Of a stretch of DNA of 64,000 nt, positions 5,720-61,000 are shown piece after piece (the first letter of the stretch is position 1; the number at the start of each line of letters is the position of its first letter). This DNA comes from Octopus vulgaris (taxonomy: Eukaryota), in assembly GCA_951406725.2 (NCBI GenBank), contig OX597818.1, positions 78,926,001 through 78,990,000 on the forward strand, given 5' to 3'. Both the position numbers and the translations under genes were made by a program. The notes beneath the pieces are model-generated. The model ran no database searches. It worked only from the letters and a program-made list of their open reading frames with translations, and was not told the origin of the DNA.

Positions 5720-7200
5720 TGTATTAAAGTAACAACAGACTACCCTAACAAGCACCCAAACTATAGGCTACCGGTTTTAGACGCGAAACCCTGGCTGGAA
5801 ACCAAGAACAGTAAGGTCCAGATCCTTCACTCACATTATGACAAATCCTTGGCCTCTAAATACCTGGTCCACAAGAACGCAGCTATTGCGGGCTACGCCA
5901 AGTTAAATATTCTAATAGCAGAGTTAGTGAGAGTGATGAGGAATGTGTCCCGTATGAGCGATCCTATAGAAATGGAATAACATATCCAGCACTTCATCTA
6001 CCGCATGCAGTTCTCTGGCTACAACCAAAGGGACAGGATTAGAGTGCACAAAGGATCCAGGACTAAGTACAAGGCCATCATAAAGAGTGATGCAAATGGG
6101 ATATTCCTGTTATACAGGAGTAAATCCTGGAACAGCACAGGAAGGACTAGAAAAAAGATTGATAAGATTGATAAGATGACAACAAAATATATCAGTGTCA
6201 TGTTCGTTGATGCTATTCCTGGAGGCAAACTTGAATACCATTTTAGAAAAGCATTAGATAAGACTAATCTACGGATTAAAGTGGTCGAAAGGCTTGACAC
6301 GACACTCAGACAAATTACAGAAAGTACATACATTGCAATAGGCATGCCGAGCCTCGACAGAAAATATGAATAGAACACTCACACCCACCACCACCACCAC
6401 CACCACCACCACCACCCAACACGACAACTAAAGAGATAAGGGAGAAAAAACATACAAGCAGTGTAATACACACACAATAGACAAATATGCACATACCTAT
6501 GATAAATATAAGAAATAGTGATAAAAAAGTAAATAAAAAAATCTGTATAAAGGGTACGAATACAAACAACATGATATGCGAAGCCATATACACACACAAA
6601 CACATAGAGTAACTTCATAAAAGGCCGCAATAAAATCAACAACGCGACCAACAACGATAATAGCTACAACGGCAAGAACAACAACAAGTGTTACTGACAC
6701 GATGGCAGCAGCGTGAGCGAATACACAAACACAGAGAGATGCAGGAACAGTACAAAGAGTCGGGGCTAAGGGCCACAGCAGCAGCAATGAGGAAGGGTAC
6801 GGGGATGAGGGTGAGATCATAGAGCTACTAAGAACAACGACGATAACGATAACAACAATATAAAAGGCTTATGCCCACATGTACACATAAGCACAAATGC
6901 GAAACACATAGACATGCGTACACACACATACGCGCGCACACATATACACACACATGTACACACATACACAAATACAGACGCAAATGCATGCCTATGTAAA
7001 GATACACATCATAGAACAGAATGCATTATGCGGAGCTGGAGTACACACAAGAATTGAAAGTGTCACTGAAGAGGTCACACGTGTGTCATGAAAGATTTCT
7101 GGATAATGGACACGAGTTAAAATAAGAACAGTAATAACGAGTGAAGAACGAATATATAGAGTGTATGTTTACTTGGCAGGAAAAAAAGAAAAAAATTACC
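5720..7200 (+). mobile_element. Degenerate Penelope-like retroelement fragment
   Basis: Interrupted ORF (HYDKSLASKYLVHK...ELVRVMRN...RMQFSGY) resembling a PLE RT C-terminus. A hammerhead-like CTGAAGA..GAAA motif lies at 7066-7093 near the 3' end. Confidence 0.55.
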
Positions 7201-8025: not shown

Positions 8026-8099
8026 CTAAGATAAATTAAAAAAATATAAAATTTTAGATACCTATTATATATTTATTTCTTTATTGGTTTCAGTCACTA

Positions 8100-8757
8100 G
8101 TATACATTGTCTCCCAGACAATGTATACTCAAAAGCAATTCACGTAGGCATAGAGGGAAAAATAACGAAATTAGATTACTTGTGAGCGCGTTTCTGGGTT
8201 AGTTAGATATAGAGATGCTAGAAATACATCCCTATTCTAACATTCCCGTCATCAGCACAAGATTTCATTAAATTTACATTTGAGAGCGCTAAAAATCGAA
8301 CATACCCATCTGATTTGAGTAACCTCAGACAAACCATCGTCCACATCCAGTACTAAAGAATTCAAAACATACGATTGAAGCTCTGCATCTTCCCCTGTCC
8401 ACCCACCTGGGTTATAGAGCAACACATTCCTACAGAAGAATTTGTAGTTTATTATCAGGGAGAGAATTATATTGTCAATAATAATAAGGGTAAAATTAAT
8501 TAATTAATTAGTAATTAATAATTTTACCAAGCAGAGTCTGGGAGACTCTTGTTATAGTAGAGGAAATAGCTAAATTCTTTGGCTGCTATTTCTAAAAGTT
8601 CGGTATGTGGTAAAGCAATTTTTTTTGCTGAACCCTAATTATATAAAGTAATGTTTAAATTTACCGTAAATGGTCCTTTTACATGCTGAACTCTGCTTGG
8701 TAAAATTATTAATTACTAATTAATTAATTAATTTTATCCTTATTATTATTGACAATA
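8100..8757. mobile_element. Non-coding hammerhead-bearing repeat (family A, copy 1) with internal inversion
   Basis: Homologous to 11095-11925 and 37291-38400. Contains an inverted ~68 bp repeat (8471-8538 / 8690-8757) and ends in (TA)n. Confidence 0.8.
8179..8261 (-). ncRNA. Type I hammerhead ribozyme motif, probably inactive (GCU at the cleavage triplet)
   Basis: CTTGTG-CTGATGA-long stem II-GAAAC-GC-GCT-CACAAG. Confidence 0.7.
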
Positions 8758-8793
8758 TATATATTTATATATATATAGATATATATATATATA

Positions 8794-10860: not shown

Positions 10861-11094
10861 ATATATGTATATATATACATATATAAATGTGTGTATATAT
10901 ATATATATACACACGTACATGTAAACATATATATATATATATATTTGTATATATATATGTATATATATATATATATATACATATATAAATGTGTATATAT
11001 ATGTATACACACGTGCATATATTATATTTATACATATAAGTAACATATATTATATATATGTATATATGTTATATATATACATACATATATTTTA

Positions 11095-11925
11095 TATAAT
11101 TAGGGTTCAGCAAAAATAAATTTGCTTTACCACACACTGAACTTTTAGAAATAGCAGCCAAATAATTTAGCTATTTCTTCTACTTTAAGAGGAGTCTCCC
11201 AGATAATGTATACTCAAAACATTTCACGCCGGTATAGCGGGAAAAATAACGAAAGTTCACACGAAAGATTGATCACTTGTGTACGCATTTCTGGCTTAAC
11301 TGGATATAGAGATGCTAGAAATACAAACTTATTCCAATATTCCCTGATAATATACTACAGATCCTTCTGTAGGAATTTGTTGCTCTATAACTCACGTGGG
11401 TGAACATGGGAGGATGCAAAGCCTCATTCGTACGGTTTGAATTCGTTAGTACTGGATGTTCGAGGTTAGTTCGTCTGAGGTACTCAAATCAGATGGGTAA
11501 GTTTGATTTTTAGTTCTCTCAAATTTAAATTTAATGAAATCATGTGCTGATGAAAGCAATATTGGAATAGGGTTGCATTTCTAGAATCTCTATATGCAGT
11601 TAACTCAGAAACGCGTTCACAAGTGATCAATCTTTCGAGTGAACTTTCGTTATTTTTACCTCTATACCGGCGTGAAATGTTTTTGAGTATACATTATCTG
11701 GGAGACTCCTCTTAAAGTAGAAGATATAGCTAAATTTTTTGGCTGCTATTTCTAAAAGTTCAGTGTGTGGTAAAGCAAAACTTTTTTGGGCTGAACCCCA
11801 ATTATATAAAATAATGTTTAAATTTACCATAAATGGACCTTTTATACACTGAATACTGCTTGGTAAAATTATTAATTACTAATTAATTAATTAATTAATT
11901 TTACCCTTATTATTATTATTATTGA
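11095..11925. mobile_element. Non-coding hammerhead-bearing foldback repeat (family A, copy 2)
   Basis: Inverted arms at ~11095-11345 and ~11555-11808, flanked by (TA)n. Confidence 0.85.
11541..11623 (+). ncRNA. Type I hammerhead ribozyme motif
   Basis: CATGTG-CTGATGA-long imperfect stem II-GAAAC-GC-GTT-CACAAG. Core boxes are intact. Confidence 0.7.
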
Positions 11926-11929
11926 AAAT

Positions 11930-14271: not shown

Positions 14272-14700
14272 CTACTCTATGCACAAGGCCCAAAATTTTG
14301 GGGGAGGGTTCCAGTCGATTACATCGACCCCAGTACGCAATTGGTACTTAATTCATCTACCCCGAAAGCATGAAAGGCAAAGTCGACCTCTGCGGAATTT
14401 AAACACAGAACGTAAATACAGACGGAATACCTATTTATTTACTACCCACAAGGGGCTAAACACAGAGGGGACAAACAAGGGCAGGCAAACAGATTAAGTG
14501 GATTACATCTACCCCAGTGCGTAACTGGTACTTATTTAATCGACCCTGAAACGATGAATGGCAAAGTCGATCTCGGCGGAATTTGAATTCAGAACGTAGC
14601 GGCAGACAAAATACCTATTTCTTTACTACCCACAAGGGGCTAAACACAGAGGGGATAAACAAGGACAGACAAACGGATTAAGTCGATTATATCGACCCCA
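14272..14700 (-). mobile_element. Multimeric tRNA-SINE
   Basis: Repeated SINE core plus ccccttgtgggtagtaaa tail units. Confidence 0.85.
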
Positions 14701-16821: not shown

Positions 16822-17594
16822 CTATAAAGTAAATATTTATAAATGATTTACAAAACTGTCGTCAGCCATTGTTTATTTTTACTTATACAACTCATTAATC
16901 AAACAGGTCACACATAGGTCATGAATAAATGATGTAAGTTCGAGGTATGAATAAATCGGCGACGAATAGATAATGATACTCAGGGTTCAAAGTTGCGCAA
17001 CTTTTCAAAACCTTGCCAAAAGGCCCCTTCTCCGAGGTATAAATGAGGATGTCTTCAAATTTAATTTGATATAAATAATGAAACTATATCACCGCAAGAA
17101 ACGCAGAGAAAGGCAGCTCTGCACAACTCACGACTCCAACAAGACCGATTCCAGAGAGACTGGGAAGTAAGTTTAAAATTAACCTGAGCATTAGCGCAAA
17201 CGGCAGCGGCCCAAAATAAACACAACCTCTGGTTCAAACCGATAAGAGAATAACAGAATAGAATTATTGAATATATTAGAAAATACTTATAATTTAATTG
17301 TATGGTATCCAGTCTGTTATATCGTATTAGATCAGCCAAAACAAGAAGGAAAATGCAGAATCGACCTTTCTCATTAAGTGTTGTGATTTTGAATAGCGTA
17401 ACGTCACTGATTACTATTTCATTTAAATGGTAACAAAACAGGTGAGACAGGAAGAAAGTAATTTCACATGAAAATACTACGATTTCTGGATACAGGGAAA
17501 AATGGTTGGTGCTATATATTTACCAATTCAAAAATGGAATACAGACACAATGAAGACATGTCTCATTTATGATTCATATGACATATATGTATAT

Positions 17595-17625
<31 letters not shown>

Positions 17626-17666
17626 CATATAATATATATATATAAATATATATATTCCCACACACA

Positions 17667-19670
17667 ACATCCACATTCAACAACAATGAAAAGACTAGAG
17701 CTGGAAAAACTTCATCTGCAGACTAACGTGAAAACCTCCATTGAAAATCAAAGAGCTGTGGAGGAACAATGGGTAATCAAAAACATCAAACAGAACCCAA
17801 AAGTGTTCTATTCTTATGCAAATAAGCATAGAACCACTGTCTCACCTATTGGGCCATTGATTGATGATAACGGCATTCCCCAACACGATGCTAAAGAAAT
17901 GGCAGAAATACTGCAGAAACAATATTGCTCTGTCTTCAGTGTTCCCACTGATATTGACGTGAGGGAAACGAACGAAGTTGACTCCCAACACAAAATCGCA
18001 GACATAACCTTCACTGCCACCGACATCGTTGCAGCAATAAATGAGGTCAAACATTACTCTGCTGTAGGCCCTGATAGATTTCCCGCTAGTCTCCTGAAGG
18101 AATGTAGATATCAACTTGCAGTCCCTCTGACCAACCTCTGGAGAAATTCGTTAGACGCAGGTTATATACCGAAACAGTTTCTATCCCAGTCGGTCATCCC
18201 GGTTTTCAAACATGGAAACAGATCCCTCGCAGTCAACTATCGCCCAATCTCACTCACCTCCCACTCACCTCCCACATCATTAAAGTGTTTGAAAGAGTGT
18301 TAAGATCAAGGATAGCTGACTTCCTGGAGACCCACAAACTCCTAAATTCAAATCAGCATGGCTTTCGCTGTGGCAAGGACTGTCTAACACAGCTCTTACA
18401 CCACATTGAAGATGTACTCAAAGCCTTGGGAACAGGTTCGAACTCTGACGTCATATATCTTGATTTCAGTAATGCGTTTGACAGGGTAGACCATAACATC
18501 CTACTCTCAAAATTGGCAAATGTTGGAATCCGTGGAAAAGTTCTACACTGGATTAAGTATTTCCTGGCGAATAGAACACAACATGTTGTAGTTGATGGAG
18601 TCCCAGCAAAAGTCACCAGCGGTGTTCCCCAGGGAACTGTTTTGGGTCCGCTAATTTTCATAATTTACGTAAATGACCTTTCCAGTGTCGTACATCACTG
18701 CAAAGTGAAAATATTCGCTGATGACACTAAGCTCCAGCAAATCGTCAATGAAGAAGCAGACCGAACTCAACTCCAGTCTGATCTATATGGGCAGACAGAA
18801 ACAAAATGCAACTGAATGAGGGAAAATTTGAGCTGATGCATTTTGGAAGAAATTCCTCACTAAAACAACCATACTCTCTTCCTTCAGGGGAACCGCTCAC
18901 AGCCTCTAACAATATCAGAGACCTGGGTGTAATTGTTGATGACGATCTCAGTTGGAGTGCACACATCAACAAGAAGGTCGATATAGCTCGTAGGATGAGT
19001 TCCTGGATCTTAAGAACTTTCCAATCCTAGAACAAGGTGTCATCATACCACTTTTTTCCTCCTTTGTACGGCCACACCTTGAATACTGCTGCCCACTGGT
19101 CTCCTCACACAAAACAAAACATCTCCAGAATTGAGTCACCCCAGAGGGCACTCACTAAACAAATTGAAGGCATGGCTGCTCTCGATTATTGGGATCGCCT
19201 TAAAGCCTTGAAACTTTATTCCCTCCAGCGTCGCCGTGAGCGGTACATCATTTGTACGATGTGGAAAATATACCGCCAACTTTGCCCAAACGACCTAAAC
19301 ATTAGCTTCAAGGTTCATCCAAGACTTGGACCACGGGCTATACGTCCCCTGCCAAATTCAAGATCACAACATACATGTACACTGCAACATAATTTCTTTT
19401 CCTCAACAGGCCCTGCCCTATTTAACATTGTCCCGAGGGAGATCAAAGAGGAAAAGGATCCCATCAACTTTAAACAGAGTCTGGATAGATTCTTTCAAAG
19501 AATACCAGATAAGCCACCCATAATTGGATACAACTCACCCAACAAGAACTCACTACTTGAACAAAACTTGACTTAAACAGGATTCGAATAATCCTATCAA
19601 GTGGTGCTATTAAGTTAGACATGGCCTGGACCAATCTCTGGTCGAAACATATCTAAGTTTATCTAAGTTT
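17667..19670 (+). mobile_element. 5'-truncated CR1-like LINE (frameshifted RT pseudogene)
   Basis: Motifs NYRPISLTS, QHGFR, YLDFSNAFD, SGVPQGTVLGP, FADD, DLGV, YSLQRRRER. Tandem 3' tail (tatctaagtt)x2. An 11-nt duplication at ~18251-18272 causes one frameshift. Confidence 0.92.
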
Positions 19671-35526: not shown

Positions 35527-36110
35527 CATTTCTACTCTAGGCACAAGACCCGAAATTTGGGTGGGGGCAGTCGATTAGATCGACCCCAGTACGGTACTGG
35601 TATTTAATTTATCGACCCCGAAAGGATGAAAGGCAAAATCGACCTCGGCAGACGAAATACCGCTAAGCATTTTGCCCGGCGTGCTAACGTTTCTTATTTC
35701 TTTATTGCCAACAAGGGGCTAAACACAGAGGGGACAAGCAGGGACAGACAGAGGGATTAAGTCGATTACATCGACCCCAATGCGTAACTGCTACTTAATT
35801 TATCGAACCCGAAAGGATGAAAGGCAAAGTCGACCTCGGCGGAATTTCAACTCAGAACGTAGCAGCAGACGAAATACCTATTTCTTTACTCCCCACAAGG
35901 GGCTAAACACAGAGACGACAAACAAGGACAGACAAACGGATTAAGTCGATTATATCGATGCCAGTGCGAACTGGTACTTATTTAATCGACCCCGAATAAA
36001 TGAAAGGCAAAGTCAACCTCGGCGGAATTTGAACTCAGAACGTAACGTCAGACGAAATACCGCTAAGCACTTCGCCCAGCGTGCTAACGTTTCTGCCAGC
36101 TCGCCGCCTT
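35527..36110 (-). mobile_element. Trimeric tRNA-SINE with perfect 16-bp TSD
   Basis: TSD gaagctgaaacataat at 35511-35526 and 36111-36126. Confidence 0.93.
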
Positions 36111-37201: not shown

Positions 37202-37297
<96 letters not shown>

Positions 37298-37486
37298 ATT
37301 AGGGCTTAGTAAAATAAATTACTTTGCCACATACTGAACTTAGTAGAAATAGCAGCCAAAAAAAAAAAAAAAATTTTCTTAGCATTTCTACTACTTAAAG
37401 AAAATTTATCTCAGATAATGTTTACTCCAGACAGCCCACGAAGGTTTGGAGGTAAATACAGAAAAATATCACAAGTACATAGATCG

Positions 37487-37549
37487 TTTGAGTACGTCAA
37501 CGTTTCAAGATTAGCCAAATAAAATCAGCATTTCTATCGTCAGCTCAAA
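37487..37549 (-). ncRNA. Type I hammerhead ribozyme motif
   Basis: Reverse complement of 38053-38115. Confidence 0.8.
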
Positions 37550-38052
37550 ATTTCTTAATTTGGATTTGGAAACACTAAAAAGAAGGAACTTTACCTATCA
37601 GCGAACTTATCGCTTCAGATGAACCACTCCAACTAAACAGTGTCAACAAATTCAAAATGCGCAGGCGTAAATTTCTTCAATCCCCTTCCACCCACGTGGT
37701 CTATCTAGCAAACACTATATTTTAACCGCGAGAACCGAGGCAGTATGACCGAGAGAAATGAATTATAATTGATATTATAATTTAACCGCGAGAACCGAGG
37801 CAGTATGACCGAGAGAAATGAATTATAATATCAATTATAATTCATTTCTCTCGGTCATACTGCCTCGGTTCTCGCGGTTAAAATATAGTGTTTGCTAGAT
37901 AGACCACGTGGGTGGAAGGGGATTGAAGAAATTTACGCCTGCGCATTTTGAATTTGTTGACACTGTTTAGTTGGAGTGGTTCATCTGAAGCGATAAGTTC
38001 GCTGATAGGTAAAGTTCCTTCTTTTAGTGTTTCCAAATCCAAATTAAGAAAT

Positions 38053-38115
38053 TTTGAGCTGACGATAGAAATGCTGATTTTATTTGGCTAATCTTGAAAC
38101 GTTGACGTACTCAAA
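38053..38115 (+). ncRNA. Type I hammerhead ribozyme motif; predicted cleavage after GUA at 38109
   Basis: TTTGAG-CTGACGA-stem II (aga/tct, gctga/ttggc)-GAAAC-GTTGAC-GTA-CTCAAA, with a perfect 6-bp stem I. Confidence 0.82.
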
Positions 38116-38398
38116 CGATCTATGTACTTGTGATATTTTTCTGTATTTACCTCCAAACCTTCGTGGGCTGTCTGGAGTAAACATTATCTGAGATAAATTT
38201 TCTTTAAGTAGTAGAAATGCTAAGAAAATTTTTTTTTTTTGGCTGCTATTTCTACTAAGTTCAGTATGTGGCAAAGTAATTTATTTTACTAAGCCCTAAT
38301 TATATAATGTAAAATTTTGAATTCGCCTTAAATGGTCCTTTTACATACTGAACACTTGGTGAAATTGATTAATTAATTAATTTTACCCTCAATTGTTG

Positions 38399-38429
<31 letters not shown>

Positions 38430-38493
38430 CATATATATATATATATGTGTGTGTCTGTGTCTGTGTCTGTGTGTGTCTATATATTTATAAATT

Positions 38494-38539
<46 letters not shown>

Positions 38540-39266
38540 CAAACATATATATGTATATATGCATATATATATAAGGTGGGATTCTTCTGTTACCATCTAC
38601 CAAATCCGTTGAGAAAGCATTGATTGGCTTGGTGCTATGGTCGAAAACATTTGCCCAAGATGCCATGCAGTGAGACTGAACCTAGGACCATGCGGTTGGG
38701 AAGGAAACTTCTCACCACAAATCTTTGAAACTTGAGAATTTCTTTCAGAAGAATTCTCTCATGTAACATACTTGTGCTACATATGTAGAGCTTCTGTCGG
38801 TTAATGTTGAACGCAAATCTGCACATCTTTGCGCAAGCCCCGCTAAGATTTTATTTTAGAATGACTACTTGTTGTCCTCGAGTATGATTCTCCTCTCTCT
38901 TTTCTACTGATGCTTATCCAAGGTAAGGGCCACTAACTTGGGCGTTTACAGCTTGACATCAATGTCGTCTCAGACGTTGCTGTTACCATATCTAATACAA
39001 AACTGTATTAGATATGGTAACTGTTGCTGCTACATATCTAATACAAAACTGTATTAGATATGTATCAAGCATCTTGTCTCATTTTTTAGAGGTTCCGTTA
39101 ATCTGCTGCTCTTCATTTGTACCTTCATCAACTTGGAAAAGATGTGATGGTCAAGATGGGGTTCAAAATCAGAGAGGATTCTATTCGATGCTATTCTACC
39201 CGATACTATAACGACACTCTCAATTCGCGAGCTTTGTGTAGAATTCTATAAGAGTATACTACACAA

Positions 39267-39407
39267 CGGGGAATCACTCGGCAGGTCCGTCGATGAAAAG
39301 CGCGGCTATCCGCGTGAACTGAAGCGAATTGCCGGACTCAGTGAACATCGACACCTCGAACGCACATTGCGGCCCCGGGTTCCCATCGTCCCAGGGCCCT
39401 GTCCGGT
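39267..39407 (+). rRNA. 5.8S rRNA retrocopy (near full length, dispersed pseudogene)
   Basis: Colinear match to conserved 5.8S blocks: atcactcggc, cgtcgatgaa, gaattgc, gaacatcgacac, cgaacgcacattgcggccccgggttcc. No ITS, 18S or 28S flanks. Confidence 0.92.
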
Positions 39408-39410
39408 ATA

Positions 39411-39640
39411 AGGCGGCGAGCTAGCAGAAACGTTAGCACACCGGGCGAAATGCTTAGCAGTATTTCGTCGGCCGTTACGTTCTGAGTTCCAATTCCGCCG
39501 ACGTCGACTTTGCCTTTCATCCTTTCGGAGTCGATAAATTAAGCACCAGTTACGCACTGGGGTCGATGTAATTGACTTATTCCGTTTGTCTGTCCTTGTT
39601 TGTCCCCTCTATGTTTAGCTCCTTGTGGGCAATAAAGAAA
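39411..39640 (+). mobile_element. Full-length monomeric tRNA-SINE fused to the 5.8S copy
   Basis: aggcggcgagctagcag head through ccttgtgggcaataaagaaa tail. An 18-bp TSD encloses both 5.8S and SINE. Confidence 0.93.
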
Positions 39641-40342
39641 TAAGAATATACTACACAATTATATCAAATTATAGCAATAGATAACCAGATACATAATACT
39701 TTAATAAAGAAACAATCAGCTATACAGCACTCAAATAAGGAAGTAGATAGCAATTTACAGTACAGTGATAAGGCAGTCAACTGCAAACTATACAATACGT
39801 TAATCATGCAGCAGACAGCCAATCATATAGCATATTGATAAACAGAAGACATCCAGGCTAAAATGTGTCGAGAAGATAACAGACAAGTAGTCTATTTCGC
39901 ATTTTCTCACGCTGTTACTCAGTGGCGACATTGAGGAGAGCATACAGCTCTGACCCATAGTGGTTCAGTTGATCACTTTAATCAGTAGCAATAACGGTAA
40001 ATTAACAATGTTTAAGTTCTATTTCCGTGGATAATAAAAAAAAATAAAAAAAAATAAAGATCTGATTTCACTTGTCTAATCCAAATGATGTGCAATTCCT
40101 TTATATTCCCTTGTCATGTAATCAACGTCTTCATTATACTCCACAGCGTATTTCTATTCGCTGTGTGACAACGACCCATTAACTCAACGAGACATTGCAT
40201 TTTTCTTGCAGCTTTATGATATTAAATATCATATCTGTTGTGTTTCTTCCAGATTTGAATATATATTGAAACTCGAGACAAATTATGCTTGCAATTGAAT
40301 CAACTCATTTCAAGTGAATAAATTATGAACAATCAAGGAATA

Positions 40343-40600
40343 ACGGAAACTGAAAGAAGCCCGTCGTATATATGTATATATATGTGCGTGTGTGTTTGTG
40401 TGTCTGTGTTTGTCCCCCTAGTATTGCTTGATAACCGATGCTGGTGTGTTTATGTCCCCGTAACTTAGCGGTTCGGCAAAAGAGACCGATAGAATAAGTA
40501 CTGGGCTTACAAAGAATAAGTCCCGGGTCGAGTTGCTCGAGTAAATGTGGTGCTTCAGCATGGCCGCAGTAAAATTACTGAAACAAGTAAAAAAGAGTAA
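40343..40600 (+). mobile_element. 5'-truncated SINE with internal (TA)/(TG) microsatellite
   Basis: ggaaactgaaagaagcccgtcg...cagcatggccgcag...ctgaaacaagtaaaa. Same family as 50775-51198. Confidence 0.8.
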
Positions 40601-40612
40601 AAAAAAAGTGTA

Positions 40613-41807
40613 TGTCAAAAAGTGTTGTACACGGTATTCTTAAGGTCTACGATGATTGTGGTTCGTGTGAAGCAAGAAAGTTTACAGGTAGGCCAAGAAA
40701 AACGACCAAGAGAGAAGATCGCGCTATGGTAAAGTTGGTTAAAATGGACAGATTTAAAACTGCTGCTGCTGTTTCTCGGAAAATGAGCATTGTATTGAAG
40801 AAAACTTTATCTCGAAAAACTGTGTCTCGTCGTTTAGTTGAACATGACCTACAAGCAAGAGCACCTGCAGTGAAGCCACTGATCAGCTCCAAGAATAAAA
40901 AAGTGTCGTCTTACCTTTGCAACCGAACATGTGTTGTGATCTCAAGAAAAATGGCAAACGATGCATTTCAGTGATGAATCTAAGTTTATATTATTTGGCT
41001 CAGATGGGAAAAAGGTACGTTCATCGAAAAGTAGGTGAAAAATTGTCGCCTAAATGCCTTAAGACTAGTGTTAAATTCGGTGGAGGAAGTGTCATGGTTT
41101 GGGGGATGATATCTGGAGATGGTGTGGGCCCTTTGGTGCGATTACATGAAAAGGTAAATGCAGGAGTTTATAAACAACTTGTAAAAGATCATGTCTTGCC
41201 TGTGCTGAGAAATTCAACTAAGCGACCACCCATATTCATGCAGGACAATGCCCCATGTCACAAGGCTAAGGTGGTCATGAACTTCCTCAAGGCTGAAAAG
41301 GTTATTGTTATGGATTGGCCTGCTTAAAGCCCAGATCTCAATCCTATTGAAAATATGTGGAATATTCTAGGAGAACATTCGAAAGCCAGAAATCCTAAAA
41401 CAACTGAGCAATTATGGAATGCCCTTCAGGAAGAATGGAATAAGATCACCCAGCAAGAAATTGAAAATTTAATTTCCTCATGCTGTCGAAGATGTCAGAG
41501 TGTGATTGAAGCTAAAGGGCTTCACAGTAAATATTAAATAATTCCAGTATTCTCTGTCATTTTTGATTATTTTGTTATTTTTTCAACCGTTCTGATTATT
41601 TTGGCCGCCATGGGTTTTGCAGAAAATCACTAAATCATCCATAACTTTTGTATTATCCTCTCAAATTACACCAAAATCTCAGGCAATAACAATTAATATT
41701 GTATTTATTGTCTGTGAAAATTATTGAATATAAAACGACTTTGATAAAAACTTATACCTACTTTTCTGACGAAAACAATGCCGTTCTGAACATTTTGGCC
41801 GCAACTG
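40613..41807 (+). mobile_element. Tc1 (DD34E) transposon, 5'-truncated, right TIR intact
   Basis: HFSDES, GGGSVMVWG, QDNAPCH and SPDLNPIE motifs with frameshifts and a stop. Ends ...ggccgcaactg|TA. Confidence 0.93.
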
Positions 41808-53089: not shown

Positions 53090-53855
53090 CAAATTTTCCA
53101 CGAACTAAACACGAAACAACAAACGATATTCCGACAAACTACCAAATCGACACCTTACGACTTCCTGCAATTAACATCTTCTCTACTATCTAATTCAGAC
53201 CACTACTATTTATAGCCGTCCGGTCAGTCGATTCTCTTGATCGAACAAAAAGCAGACAATACCATTCATCTCCACACACAGTCCTGGCATAACAAATATT
53301 TTCCAGGCTATAAGATCAAACTTACCCATCCTTCTACAAAGCCCCAAAATGATGAACCTGATGAACAAAATTCTTACTTAACTGCAAACGCCAACCGAAA
53401 AATCTTAAAAAGCACCTCACAATGGCAGAATTCAGATCGGAGAAGGGACCATAATTCTCAGTAACAGAATGTGGAGACAAAAGATGCGGAATATGCAAGA
53501 ACGACAATAATTACAAATACCTAGAATGTGGTTCAAAAGTGGCCCTCTCTTTAAAATCAATGCAAATATGACCTGCAAAACGCACAAACTCATATATTGC
53601 ATTACCTGCCCAAACTGCAAGCAAAATTATATAGGCGAAACGAACAACTCCCTCTGCCAACGCGCTAGAATACATAGACAACATATAAAACAGGAAGAGT
53701 TACGCAAGATACAATTAAGCACACACCTGGAAGTATATGGAATGGGAAAATTTAAAATTATTCCATTCTACAAATGCTCGCGAAATGACCCAGAATACCG
53801 TCAAGCTGTGGAACTGCATTTTATAGAAACATTTAGCCCAAAATTGAACGGTTAA
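53090..53855 (+). mobile_element. Penelope-like element, GIY-YIG endonuclease relic
   Basis: MTCKTHKLIYCITCPNCKQNYIGETNNSLCQRARIHR...ELHFIETFSPKLN. Confidence 0.85.
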
Positions 53856-54318: not shown

Positions 54319-55603
54319 CAGTTGCGGCCAAAATGTTCCGAACGGCATTGTTTTCGTCAGAGAAGTAGATATAATTTTTTATCAAAGTTGTTTTATATTC
54401 TATAATTTTCACAGACAATAAATACAATATTATTTGTTATTGCCTGAGATTTTGGTGTAATTTGAGTGGATAATACAAAAGTTATGGATGATTTAGTGAT
54501 TTACTGCAAAATCAATGGCGGCCAAAATGATCAGAACGGTTCCTTTTATTCCGTGTTTTAGTATATTTAACCGGCGAACTCTAATGTTTTGAATTTGCTT
54601 ACGTGATGGTTCGTTTACTAAACATTAGTAAGAATATTTGCAGTGTACTTTGTTAATATAATGCCACTTACTCCGTTACCAATTCGTCAGCAGATTATTA
54701 AGCTTCGAAGGAAGGATAATTTAAGTATTGGATCTATTGCAAAGATTGTTAACAAGTCAAAAAGTGTTGTACACGGTATTCTTAAGGTCTGCGATGATTG
54801 TGGTTCGTGTGAAGCAAGAAAGTTTACAGGTAGGCCAAGAAAAACGACCAAGAGAGAAGATCATGCTATGGTAAAGTTGGTTAAAAAGGACAGATTTAAA
54901 ACTGCTGCTGCTGTTTCTCGGAAAATGAGCATTGTATTGAAGAAAACTTTATCTCGAAAAACTGTGTCTCGTCGTTTAGTTGAACATGACCTACAAGCAA
55001 GAGCACCTGCAGTGAAGCCACTGATCAGCTCCAAGAATACAAAGTGTCGTCTTACCTTTGCAACTGAACATGTGTTGTGGTCTCAAGAAAAATGGCAAAC
55101 GGTGCATTTCAGTGATGAATCTGAGTTTATGCTATTTAGCTCAGATGGGAAAAAGGTATGTTCGTAGAAAAGTAGGTGAAAAATTGTTGCCTAAATGCCT
55201 TAAGACTAGTGTTAAATTCGGTGGAGGAAGTGTCATGGTTTGGGGGATGATATCTGGAGATGGTGTGGGCCCTTTGGTGCGATTACATGGAAAGTTAACT
55301 GCAGGAGTTTATAAACAACTTGTAAAAGATCATGTCTTGCCTGTGCTGAGAAATTCAACTAAGCGACCACCCATATTCATGCAGGACAATGCCCCATGTC
55401 ACAAGGCTAAGGTGGTCATGAACTTCCTCAAGGCTGAAAAGATTATTATTATGGATTGGCCAGCGCAAAGCCCAGATCTCAATCCTATTGAAAATGTGTG
55501 GAATATTCAAGGAGAACGTTCGAAAGCCAGAAATCCTAAAACAACAGAGCAATTATGGAATGCCCTTCAGGAAGAATGGAATAAGACCACCCAGCAAGAA
55601 ATT
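54319..55603 (+). mobile_element. Tc1 (DD34E) transposon, left TIR intact, 3'-truncated
   Basis: TA|cagttgcggccaaaatg. ~220 bp TIR with an inner direct repeat at ~54517-54539. ATG at 54661. D..D34E triad and one frameshift. Confidence 0.94.
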
Positions 55604-55728
55604 GCCCCTCTCTCTCTCTTTTTCACCTTCTCCCTCCCTCTATTCCCCATTATACACACACACTCTCCCTCTCTCTCCACACTTCATTCACCAATAATAT
55701 AAAAACAGGCCAAACTCTGCAAACTCAC

Positions 55729-59867: not shown

Positions 59868-60369
59868 ATGTATATATATATGTATATATATATGTATACG
59901 CATATATATGTGTATCTATATGTCTCTATATGTATATACATATATTTGCATATATATATGTATATGTATATACATTTATATATATGTAAATATATACATA
60001 TATATATGTATATATATATGTGAGTATATAATATATATGTATATATATATGTATGTATATGTATATATGTATGTATGTGTATATATATGTATATATTAAT
60101 ATATATGTGTAAATGTATGTATACCTGTGTGATTGTATGTATATATATATGTATGTATATTTGTATTTATATATATGTGCATGTGCATATATATAAGCAT
60201 ATATACATATATACGTATATATATATATATATATATACATATGTTTATATATGTAGGTAGGTAGATAGATAGATAGAAGATAGGTAGTCACAGAGGTAGA
60301 TACGTATGTAGAGAGAGGGGGAGGAGAAGGCGGATCCACCTTTCCTATTCACCTTTCATTTATTCATTT

Positions 60370-60550
60370 ATTGGAACATGCAACAACAAATAAATTTTAA
60401 GAGCGGTTCCCTTTTCAAAATAAATACAGATATGAACTGCAAAATACAAAACCTCATATACTGCATTACCTACCCAAACTACATAGAAAATTACATTGGC
60501 GGAACAAATAATTCCCTCTGCCAACGTGCAAGAATCCACAGGCAACATCA
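60370..60550 (+). mobile_element. Second GIY-YIG (Penelope-like) fragment
   Basis: MNCKIQNLIYCITYPNYIENYIGGTNNSLCQRARIHRQH. Confidence 0.8.
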
Positions 60551-61000
60551 AAAGTTGAGACAGTACATTTTTTATTCTAAATATAACTCAAATATCGGAA
60601 ATATAATGCTCACCTCAGTAAATATTCAGGTGTATATGTGTGCCATTGAGATGTTCTGAGCTTTGCATGTTTGTCTTGTCTCTAAATTAATGTTCTCTAA
60701 TGCAAAGCATGAAACTGAAAGAGGCGTGATTTTGTTTTTCATTGCAAAACATCGAAGTTACATAGTATAAACGGACATGTTCCCAAACATACACACAGAC
60801 ACACACATACACACACACACACACGTACACACTCACACAAACACACACAAACACTCAATACTGTTCATCAAGGGATTTCTCTTCAAGATTGAATGTTTGA
60901 AGGTAAAATGGAAAATTTATATATTCCAAATGTGACTCATCTCTACAAATGCTCAGATATATGTGTAACATTGGTATGTTCTAGCTTTTTGTATATATTT

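What the first reader, a model, noticed from the sequence alone, without database searches (positions are those of the whole stretch)
37291..38400. 1-kb perfect foldback carrying two opposed hammerhead ribozymes
Seen: ~490 bp arms that differ only in homopolymer length, each with a type I hammerhead (6-bp stem I, CUGACGA, GAAAC, GUA). There is no ORF and the element sits in (TA)n. The 38-nt spacer is a copy of adjacent arm sequence (60-bp period at 37721-37829), a template-switch signature. Known: Penelope-like elements and retrozymes carry hammerheads in their terminal repeats, and PLEs often have inverted termini. Inference: a very young non-autonomous element. Transcription from either direction would give a self-cleavage motif plus a long dsRNA able to sequester it or feed ADAR/RNAi.
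Basis: partly seen in the sequence, partly recalled or inferred. Interest (0 to 1): 0.8.

Follow-up and report, generated by a model that had tools for sequence, protein, structure and literature searches.

The report
Octopus hammerhead repeat inserted as foldback
The 1-kb mirror-image sequence is one copy, likely recent, of a many-copy, 566-base non-coding octopus repeat that carries a predicted self-cutting hammerhead RNA, and its mirror shape is likely the ordinary footprint left when Penelope-like retrotransposon enzymes paste such a repeat into a TA microsatellite.

Summary
Observation confirmed: arms 37291-37782 and 37821-38311 differ only in two homopolymers, each carries a type I hammerhead motif, and the spacer copies adjacent arm sequence. 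The right arm runs 88 nt further (a one-sided tail) to (TA)n. Two older relatives (about 70-78% alike) lie in the same window, also inverted and hammerhead-bearing. Short-read contigs of several studies hold many copies. The real unit is a 566-nt non-coding repeat (37835-38401) with covarying hammerhead stems, a strong predicted fold (z -5.3) and a tail-to-head junction seen in independent contigs. The host is an Octopus (nearby gene 95% to an O. vulgaris protein). Head-to-head arms, a junction palindrome, a one-sided tail, (TA)n targets and paired opposite-strand hammerheads are all published Penelope-like-element (PLE) signatures. Best reading: a retrozyme-like or pLTR-derived unit mobilised in trans by a PLE, with the foldback made at insertion. 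In read-through RNA from either side the ribozyme strand is made after its complement and is predicted to be fully sequestered. Cleavage, circular RNA, the partner PLE and this locus's exact centre are unshown. New member of a known kind; interest 0.35.

The parts
37203..37290 (.). left (TA)n microsatellite, likely insertion target
37291..37782 (-). left arm: inverted copy of the unit, lacking the tail; ends at CCCTAATTATATAAT, the same place as the left arm of relative B
37487..37549 (-). mirror type I hammerhead motif (A17 = 37493)
37761..37782 (.). 22-nt AT hairpin turn, loop TGAT; contains the family's tail-to-head junction read in sense
37783..37820 (.). 38-nt spacer, copy of 37723-37760, entered through a 7-nt microhomology with one mismatch
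37821..37842 (.). second 22-nt hairpin turn, loop ATCA (flipped); centre of an inner perfect hairpin 37776-37887
37835..38401 (+). full 566-nt non-coding unit, head to tail; predicted rod-like fold
38053..38115 (+). type I hammerhead motif; predicted cut after A38109; U.U at the base of stem II where the family majority has A-U
38301..38376 (+). TATA-like word (38301-38308) and a 14-codon ATG frame (38332-38376) kept in all three relatives; role untested
38312..38401 (+). one-sided tail (88-90 nt) with an AT-rich hairpin, absent from the left arm
38399..38573 (.). right (TA)n/(TG)n microsatellite
8100..8760 (.). older relative A: inverted head-plus-hammerhead part preceded by about 70 nt of tail (tail-to-head junction), then a 5'-truncated sense copy ending in (TA)n; intronic
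11090..11927 (.). older relative B: head-to-head foldback with tail on one arm, arms 6.8% diverged, hammerhead on the right arm and part of one on the left; intronic

Best explanation
The foldback is one copy, likely recent, of a many-copy 566-nt non-coding, hammerhead-bearing octopus repeat, likely pasted into a (TA)n tract by the reverse transcriptase and GIY-YIG endonuclease of a Penelope-like element acting in trans, with the mirror arm likely built during that insertion. Shown: the unit, its tail-to-head junction, its relatives, the one-sided tail, the microsatellite flanks, the shared rare alleles of the two arms. Inferred steps: (1) the PLE protein nicks (TA)n and primes cDNA at the unit's AT-rich tail hairpin; (2) cDNA runs through the uncut (or re-ligated) hammerhead to the head and a few bases past it, so the template came from a head-to-tail source or an RNA circle; (3) the cDNA folds back at the AT hairpin at the head and copies itself, or a second cDNA primed from the other target strand is joined to it head-to-head; (4) the second arm stops at TATATAA, where it can anneal to the other (TA)n end, hence the tail on one side only. 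The doubled, loop-flipped centre needs one more template switch: either the template RNA already carried a foldback turn, or a bare palindrome was later rearranged. The hammerhead would serve the family's RNA (likely as a dimer through the palindromic stem III); in this foldback it is predicted to be silenced by its own antisense arm unless transcription starts at the centre.
For: Relatives A and B repeat the architecture at 70-78% identity, and B's left arm ends at the same site as this one. 20 of 24 listed runs, 8 studies, 3 organism labels hold the stretch or part of it. In 4 runs laid on 37716-38398, 2110, 4633, 902 and 60 contigs fit, with summed depth falling from about 1e6 at the 3' end to about 1e4 at the head in the three DNA-like runs, as 5' truncation would give (not a copy number). 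Four X1 contigs continue past the turn exactly as this copy's reversed tail; relative A shows the same junction. Both arms carry the minority letter at 6 of 6 sites where 57-98% of depth has another. Hammerhead stems: 93% of cells paired, 7 of 16 pairs changed on both sides, 3/500 shuffles reach the covariation score, slid controls 27-41%. No variant at 10% or more in the catalytic core in 4 of 4 runs. Unit fold z -5.3, relative B z -4.3; head-to-post-hammerhead duplex beats 300/300, 300/300 and 296/300 shuffles in C, A, B. Indels between subfamilies are multiples of three in only 3 of 10 and 1 of 12 cases. Published PLE signatures match; octopus has (TA)n-targeting, hammerhead-bearing PLEs (Hydra-1_Obim) and a Neptune-type GIY-YIG remnant lies in this window.
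Against: No autonomous partner sharing this unit's 3' end was found: five family motifs plus a 16-mer in both orientations are absent from the Craig et al. supplement. No array of two full units was seen. The covariation rests on two subfamilies (5 rows, two of them the same arm); for the long-range rod it is not significant against shuffles (33/500), and 5'/3' halves pair about as well across subfamilies as within. The depth gradient also follows conservation (3' part 73-91% alike between subfamilies, 5' part 51-66%). The tail is 88-90 nt, longer than the 30-40 nt in print. Rfam does not recognise the hammerhead; position 10.1/11.1 is non-canonical in all three loci.
Confidence: 0.62

Rival explanations
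1. The unit is the solo pseudo-LTR of an autonomous PLE whose ORF lies upstream of the head in copies not seen here; the foldback is a stump-sized insertion of that element, and the tail-to-head junction comes from the element inserting into an AT-rich site in its own pLTR.
For: PLEs nick an ATT site in their own pLTR and form partial tandems (PMC11167929). A TATA-like word and a short ATG frame in the tail are kept in 3 of 3 relatives (MVLLHTEHLVKLIN*, MVLLHAELCLVKLLITN*, MDLLYTEYCLVKLLITN*), where rotifer pLTRs carry a TATA box and the first 12-22 codons (PMC3846280). Only 24 of 205 loose ends were shown.
Against: 3 of 3 loci turn at, or run through, the same head-tail junction; the only continuation shown past the head is the tail; that short frame ends in a stop in 3 of 3 copies; the 225 nt upstream of the hammerhead behave as non-coding.
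Confidence: 0.22
2. The family is real but this perfect palindrome is an assembly or library artefact (read foldback or mis-join through the microsatellites).
For: Arms differ only at homopolymers, the typical long-read error; both ends lie in (TA)n.
Against: A read foldback would mirror the tail and right flank; here the left arm lacks the tail and the flanks are different sequence. Relative B has the same layout and end point with arms 6.8% apart, which no library artefact makes. Head-to-head joints of other copies appear in short-read contigs of X1 and X3 (sides 23-28 nt, weak). The T5 arm variant is a common family allele in X2, X3 and X9.
Confidence: 0.06
3. A DNA-level event: a MITE/foldback-type transposon, or an inverted duplication of a resident copy made by fork stalling after insertion.
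For: The loop-flipped, 60-bp-duplicated centre with microhomology is what DNA template switching leaves.
Against: Ends are asymmetric, not terminal inverted repeats; 3' bias, one-sided tail, hammerhead and (TA)n targeting point to reverse transcription; a random duplication would not end at the same site in two subfamilies.
Confidence: 0.05
4. The foldback is kept by the host as a functional dsRNA/ribozyme switch, feeding ADAR or RNAi.
For: Predicted hairpin of -875 kcal/mol; relatives A and B sit in an intron of a DMBT1-like gene.
Against: The older foldback B is decaying (6.8% between arms, damaged stems); this copy lies about 16 kb upstream of the first coding exon found (21251).
Confidence: 0.05

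Closest known systems
EN+ PLE insertions with inverted pLTR, junction palindrome and one-sided tail (Arkhipova et al. 2013, PMC3846280, parts 1-3 of 5 and passages read; Craig et al. 2021, PMC8557442, passages, one section and supplement searches)
   Same: Head-to-head inverted copy, palindrome at the junction ascribed to self-priming, tail on one arm only, (TA)n targets, hammerhead in the terminal repeat.
   Different: No ORF; tail 88-90 nt rather than 30-40; doubled, loop-flipped centre; not the published octopus Hydra-1_Obim or Naiad families (motif searches).
Paired opposite-strand minimal hammerheads of metazoan PLEs (Cervera and de la Pena 2014, PMC4209133, parts 1-2 of 4 read)
   Same: Dual hammerheads about 100-700 bp apart on opposite strands are described there (here about 515 bp); long helix II, palindromic helix III, predicted dimer action.
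   Different: No G10.1-C11.1 pair; a conserved 3x3 AAU/UAA internal loop in helix II; 4-bp stem III in this subfamily.
Animal non-LTR retrozymes (Cervera and de la Pena 2020, PMC7229834, parts 2-3 of 6 and passages read; Li, Clavereau and Pollet 2026 preprint 10.64898/2026.07.22.740005, parts 1-3 of 5 read)
   Same: Non-coding, AT-rich, many-copy, type I hammerhead, highly self-paired prediction, head-to-tail junction, proposed PLE mobilisation; U.U at the base of helix II also occurs in the active axolotl HHR_Amex2.
   Different: 566 nt (above 150-450; inside the 51-972 of the preprint); seen here as dispersed foldbacks, not arrays; circular RNA and cleavage unshown; no cephalopod example surfaced in my searches.
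Poseidon PAc of Anolis in vitro (Frangieh et al. 2024, PMC11167929, parts 1-2 of 4 read)
   Same: AT-rich nicking, both strands extended, two internal RT start sites that define the tail, uncut RNA as the main template: a ready mechanism for this anatomy.
   Different: PAc is autonomous and its ORF starts inside the hammerhead; nothing like that here.

Membership tests
Autonomous EN+ Penelope-like element | RT plus GIY-YIG ORF | tested here: not met
   longest frame 69 aa, no Pfam match, frame-breaking indels
PLE-type insertion | head-to-head inverted copy with palindrome at the junction | tested here: met
   also relatives A and B
PLE-type insertion | tail on one arm only | tested here: met
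   38312-38401 and the same in B, but 88-100 nt rather than 30-40
PLE-type insertion | microsatellite (TA)n target | tested here: met
   3 of 3 loci end in (TA)n
PLE-type insertion | target-site duplication | tested here: inconclusive
   both ends lie in microsatellite
PLE-type insertion | 3' end shared with an autonomous PLE | tested here: inconclusive
   no match to family motifs in the Craig supplement or to PLE remnants in the window; no genome held
Non-LTR retrozyme | type I hammerhead in the unit | tested here: met
   5 motifs in 3 loci by a model built from them
Non-LTR retrozyme | non-coding, low GC, highly self-paired unit | tested here: met
   (structure is a prediction)
Non-LTR retrozyme | tandem arrays of two or more full units | tested here: inconclusive
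   tail-to-head junction in X1 contigs and in locus A; no array seen
Non-LTR retrozyme | unit size | tested here: inconclusive
   566 nt: above 150-450, within 51-972
Non-LTR retrozyme | self-cleavage and abundant circular RNA | not testable with these tools
   only contigs were available
Canonical type I hammerhead | conserved core and three stems | tested here: met
Canonical type I hammerhead | G10.1-C11.1 pair | tested here: not met
   U.U here, A-U in the family majority, C.A and A.A in relatives; Rfam models do not score it
Canonical type I hammerhead | loop 1-loop 2 tertiary contact | not tested
   no tool used for it
MITE / foldback DNA transposon | inverted repeats reaching both termini | tested here: not met
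   right end has 88-90 nt with no mirror

The most novel reading that the evidence does not exclude
Octopus carries a very abundant 566-nt retrozyme that lives as a rod-folded circular RNA; a PLE reverse transcriptase starts inside the circle at the tail hairpin, stalls after exactly one turn and snaps back, so insertions routinely form head-to-head foldbacks, some of them copied again from earlier foldbacks. The family would thus seed the genome with self-silencing perfect hairpins and be a major source of dsRNA for cephalopod RNA editing.
Probability: 0.25. Interest if true: 0.62.

Novelty: new member of a known kind. Interest (0 to 1): 0.35.

Why it matters
It ties a retrozyme-like non-coding unit to PLE insertion signatures in one locus series (young, old, partial), which is the link proposed but thinly shown for animal retrozymes. 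The shared end point of the mirror arm and the turns at the head-tail junction make the self-priming and two-start-site models of PLE integration testable by a simple census. A hammerhead variant with an open 10.1/11.1 position and a conserved internal loop is a ready assay target. The foldback with opposed hammerheads itself is already in print.

Tried and rejected
No whole genome is held, so no census. Rfam: no hammerhead match; miRNA-type hits at the centre only reflect the hairpin. Coding origin: an antisense 69-aa frame ending ...LNSVNKFKMRRRKFLQ... looks faintly like the C-terminus of Hydra-type PLE proteins, but it is antisense to the hammerhead, not kept in A or B, has no Pfam match, and substitutions show no third-position bias; an 82-aa antisense frame of B found no homolog among 14 candidates. 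The Neptune-type remnant found no longer homolog among 8 candidates. A conserved family pattern gave 0 matches in metagenome and viral contigs. No RNA holder listed on record; X9 is only guessed to be RNA, so its contig across the predicted cut site says nothing on expression or cleavage. The locus-specific centre was not bridged by any of the 32 pieces shown of 7780, and no listed piece spans the stretch; only 37716-38398 was laid, on 4 of 24 runs. One search used a mis-registered structure string and is void; one search replaces it. Circular folding is no better than linear (-144.4 vs -148.9). Earlier-finding look-ups by sequence and place were empty. The 2015 octopus genome paper is not held. 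Repbase, Dfam and the consensus library of PMC13282606 could not be searched, so the family may already be annotated there as Penelope, SINE or unknown; the preprint's supplements are closed.

Full report
Observation. The palindrome is as described. Arms 37291-37782 and 37821-38311 match over 491 positions with no internal substitution and two homopolymer gaps; 38 nt separate them and repeat adjacent arm sequence with a 60-bp period. The hammerhead at 38053-38115 has a 6-bp stem I, CUGACGA, GAAAC, a 4-bp palindromic stem III and GUA; my descriptor finds it in both arms and once in 60 shuffles of the window. Rfam does not recognise it and the monomer does not favour the fold, while two copies co-fold into the dimeric form with an intermolecular helix III at -27.2 kcal/mol against -9.2 per monomer. 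There is no ORF.

The right arm runs on for 88-90 nt before (TA)n, and that stretch is family sequence, not flank. BLAST inside the window finds two older relatives, A (8100-8760) and B (11090-11927), about 70-78% alike in the alignable parts. Both are inverted structures with hammerheads and end in (TA)n. B has the same plan as this locus, with its mirror arm ending at the same CCCTAATTATATAA site and its arms 6.8% apart. A carries about 70 nt of tail joined directly to the head. The host is an Octopus: an exon in the window is 95% identical to an O. vulgaris DMBT1-like protein, the next hits being 70% or less; A and B are intronic, this copy lies about 16 kb upstream of the first coding exon found.

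Family evidence from public runs. 20 of 24 listed runs from 8 studies and 3 organism labels hold the stretch or part of it; one may be the source sample. I laid 4 of them on 37716-38398 at 88% likeness: 2110, 4633, 902 and 60 contigs. Summed depth is not a copy number, but it falls about a hundredfold from tail to head, as 5' truncation (and lower 5' conservation) would give. Four X1 contigs continue past 37834 exactly as the reverse complement of this copy's tail, so a tail-to-head junction exists in independent short-read data, and the six bases at the turn of the foldback are its remnant. At six sites this copy has the minority letter and both arms share it, so the arms come from one molecule or one narrow source. 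One of these is 38066: the majority restores an A-U pair at the base of stem II, where this copy has U.U. No variant reached 10% in the catalytic core in 4 of 4 runs, against 22 variant rows elsewhere; the likeness cut-off biases this. The locus-specific centre was not bridged by any listed piece.

The unit. Head (37835) to tail (38401) is 566 nt. It folds at z -5.3, and B at z -4.3. Hammerhead stems covary between the two subfamilies: 93% paired, 7 of 16 pairs changed on both sides, slid controls 27-41% (effectively two lineages). A long duplex between the head and the region after the hammerhead is predicted in all three loci, but its covariation is not significant (33/500). Indels and substitutions show no coding signal. 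A TATA-like word and a 14-17-codon ATG frame in the tail are kept in all three copies and keep the pLTR reading alive.

Mechanism. Writing T for the 22-nt turn and B for the 37 nt beside it, the + strand reads arm-B-T'-t-B-T-B'-arm'-tail. The minus strand, which would be the cDNA if priming was at the right (TA)n, reads tail'-arm-B-T'-B'-a-T-B'-arm'. This is what one cDNA gives if its template already carried B-T upstream of the head and the cDNA then folded back on its own T' through the 7-nt microhomology; two cDNAs primed from the two target strands and joined at that microhomology give the same product; so does a simple hairpin insertion rearranged later. All are inferences and I cannot separate them. 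Arkhipova et al. infer self-priming from exactly such head-to-head palindromes; Frangieh et al. show both-strand extension, two RT start sites and uncut RNA as template. Zero substitutions in 491 bp bound arm divergence below 0.6%; on the calibration quoted in PMC13282606 (0.09 for 25 Myr) that is under about 1 Myr if the arms have not been homogenised, against roughly 9 Myr for B. Because the arms are head-to-head, read-through from either flank makes the antisense strand first; the stem I closing pair has predicted probability 0.0000 in both such transcripts and 0.48 in the lone unit. The locus is therefore likely a dead, self-silencing copy.

Comparison with what is known. Inverted 5' copies, one-sided tails and (TA)n bias are standard for PLEs; dual hammerheads 100-700 bp apart on opposite strands were reported in 2014; octopus PLEs with a hammerhead and (TA)n targets are listed in the Craig supplement, with a different sequence; PLEs make up 6.83% of the O. 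vulgaris annotation. The unit works like a non-LTR retrozyme but membership is open: arrays, cleavage and circles are unshown. Searches for octopus plus hammerhead ribozyme (5 papers, 4 listed) and cephalopod plus retrozyme (2 papers, 1 listed) showed no description of this family; repeat databases were not searchable. Earlier scan notes report similar PLE-type palindromes in a shark and PLE-type non-coding units in other animals; they are unchecked and are not counted as support.

Verdict. Real with high probability, young, and explained by known PLE biology; the new part is an apparently undescribed octopus hammerhead repeat family with a variant ribozyme and a readable insertion record. New member of a known kind, interest 0.35; most novel reading (circular octopus retrozyme that habitually inserts as self-silencing foldbacks) probability 0.25, interest 0.62.

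Noticed in passing
window 39241-39657: A 5.8S rRNA copy (39258-39416, Rfam 75.7 bits) is fused to a reversed unit of the abundant 184-bp repeat and the pair is flanked by a roughly 17-nt direct repeat with one mismatch: looks like a chimeric retrocopy with a target-site duplication.
   Followed up: partly
window 77-21251, minus strand: Exons of a DMBT1-like SRCR gene, 82-100% to an Octopus vulgaris protein. Relatives A and B lie in one intron; A ends about 75 nt from the exon at 8027-7824.
   Followed up: partly
window 53480-53855 and 60312-60659: GIY-YIG remnants; the first has a CxxxxCxxC linker upstream, as in Neptune-type PLEs.
   Followed up: partly
window 5981-6373: A 130-aa frame that by recall resembles the C-terminus of Naiad-type PLE proteins; no Pfam match.
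   Followed up: no
window 14313-14700, 35569-36110, 39410-39646: A 184-bp repeat family in tandem and dispersed form; recalled as an octopus SINE, not verified.
   Followed up: no
window 17554-19576; 40591-41327; 54622-55702: Broken frames that read like a LINE reverse transcriptase and two Tc1-type transposases (labels by eye).
   Followed up: no
window 8099-8128: A second small foldback (30 nt) closes the left end of relative A.
   Followed up: no
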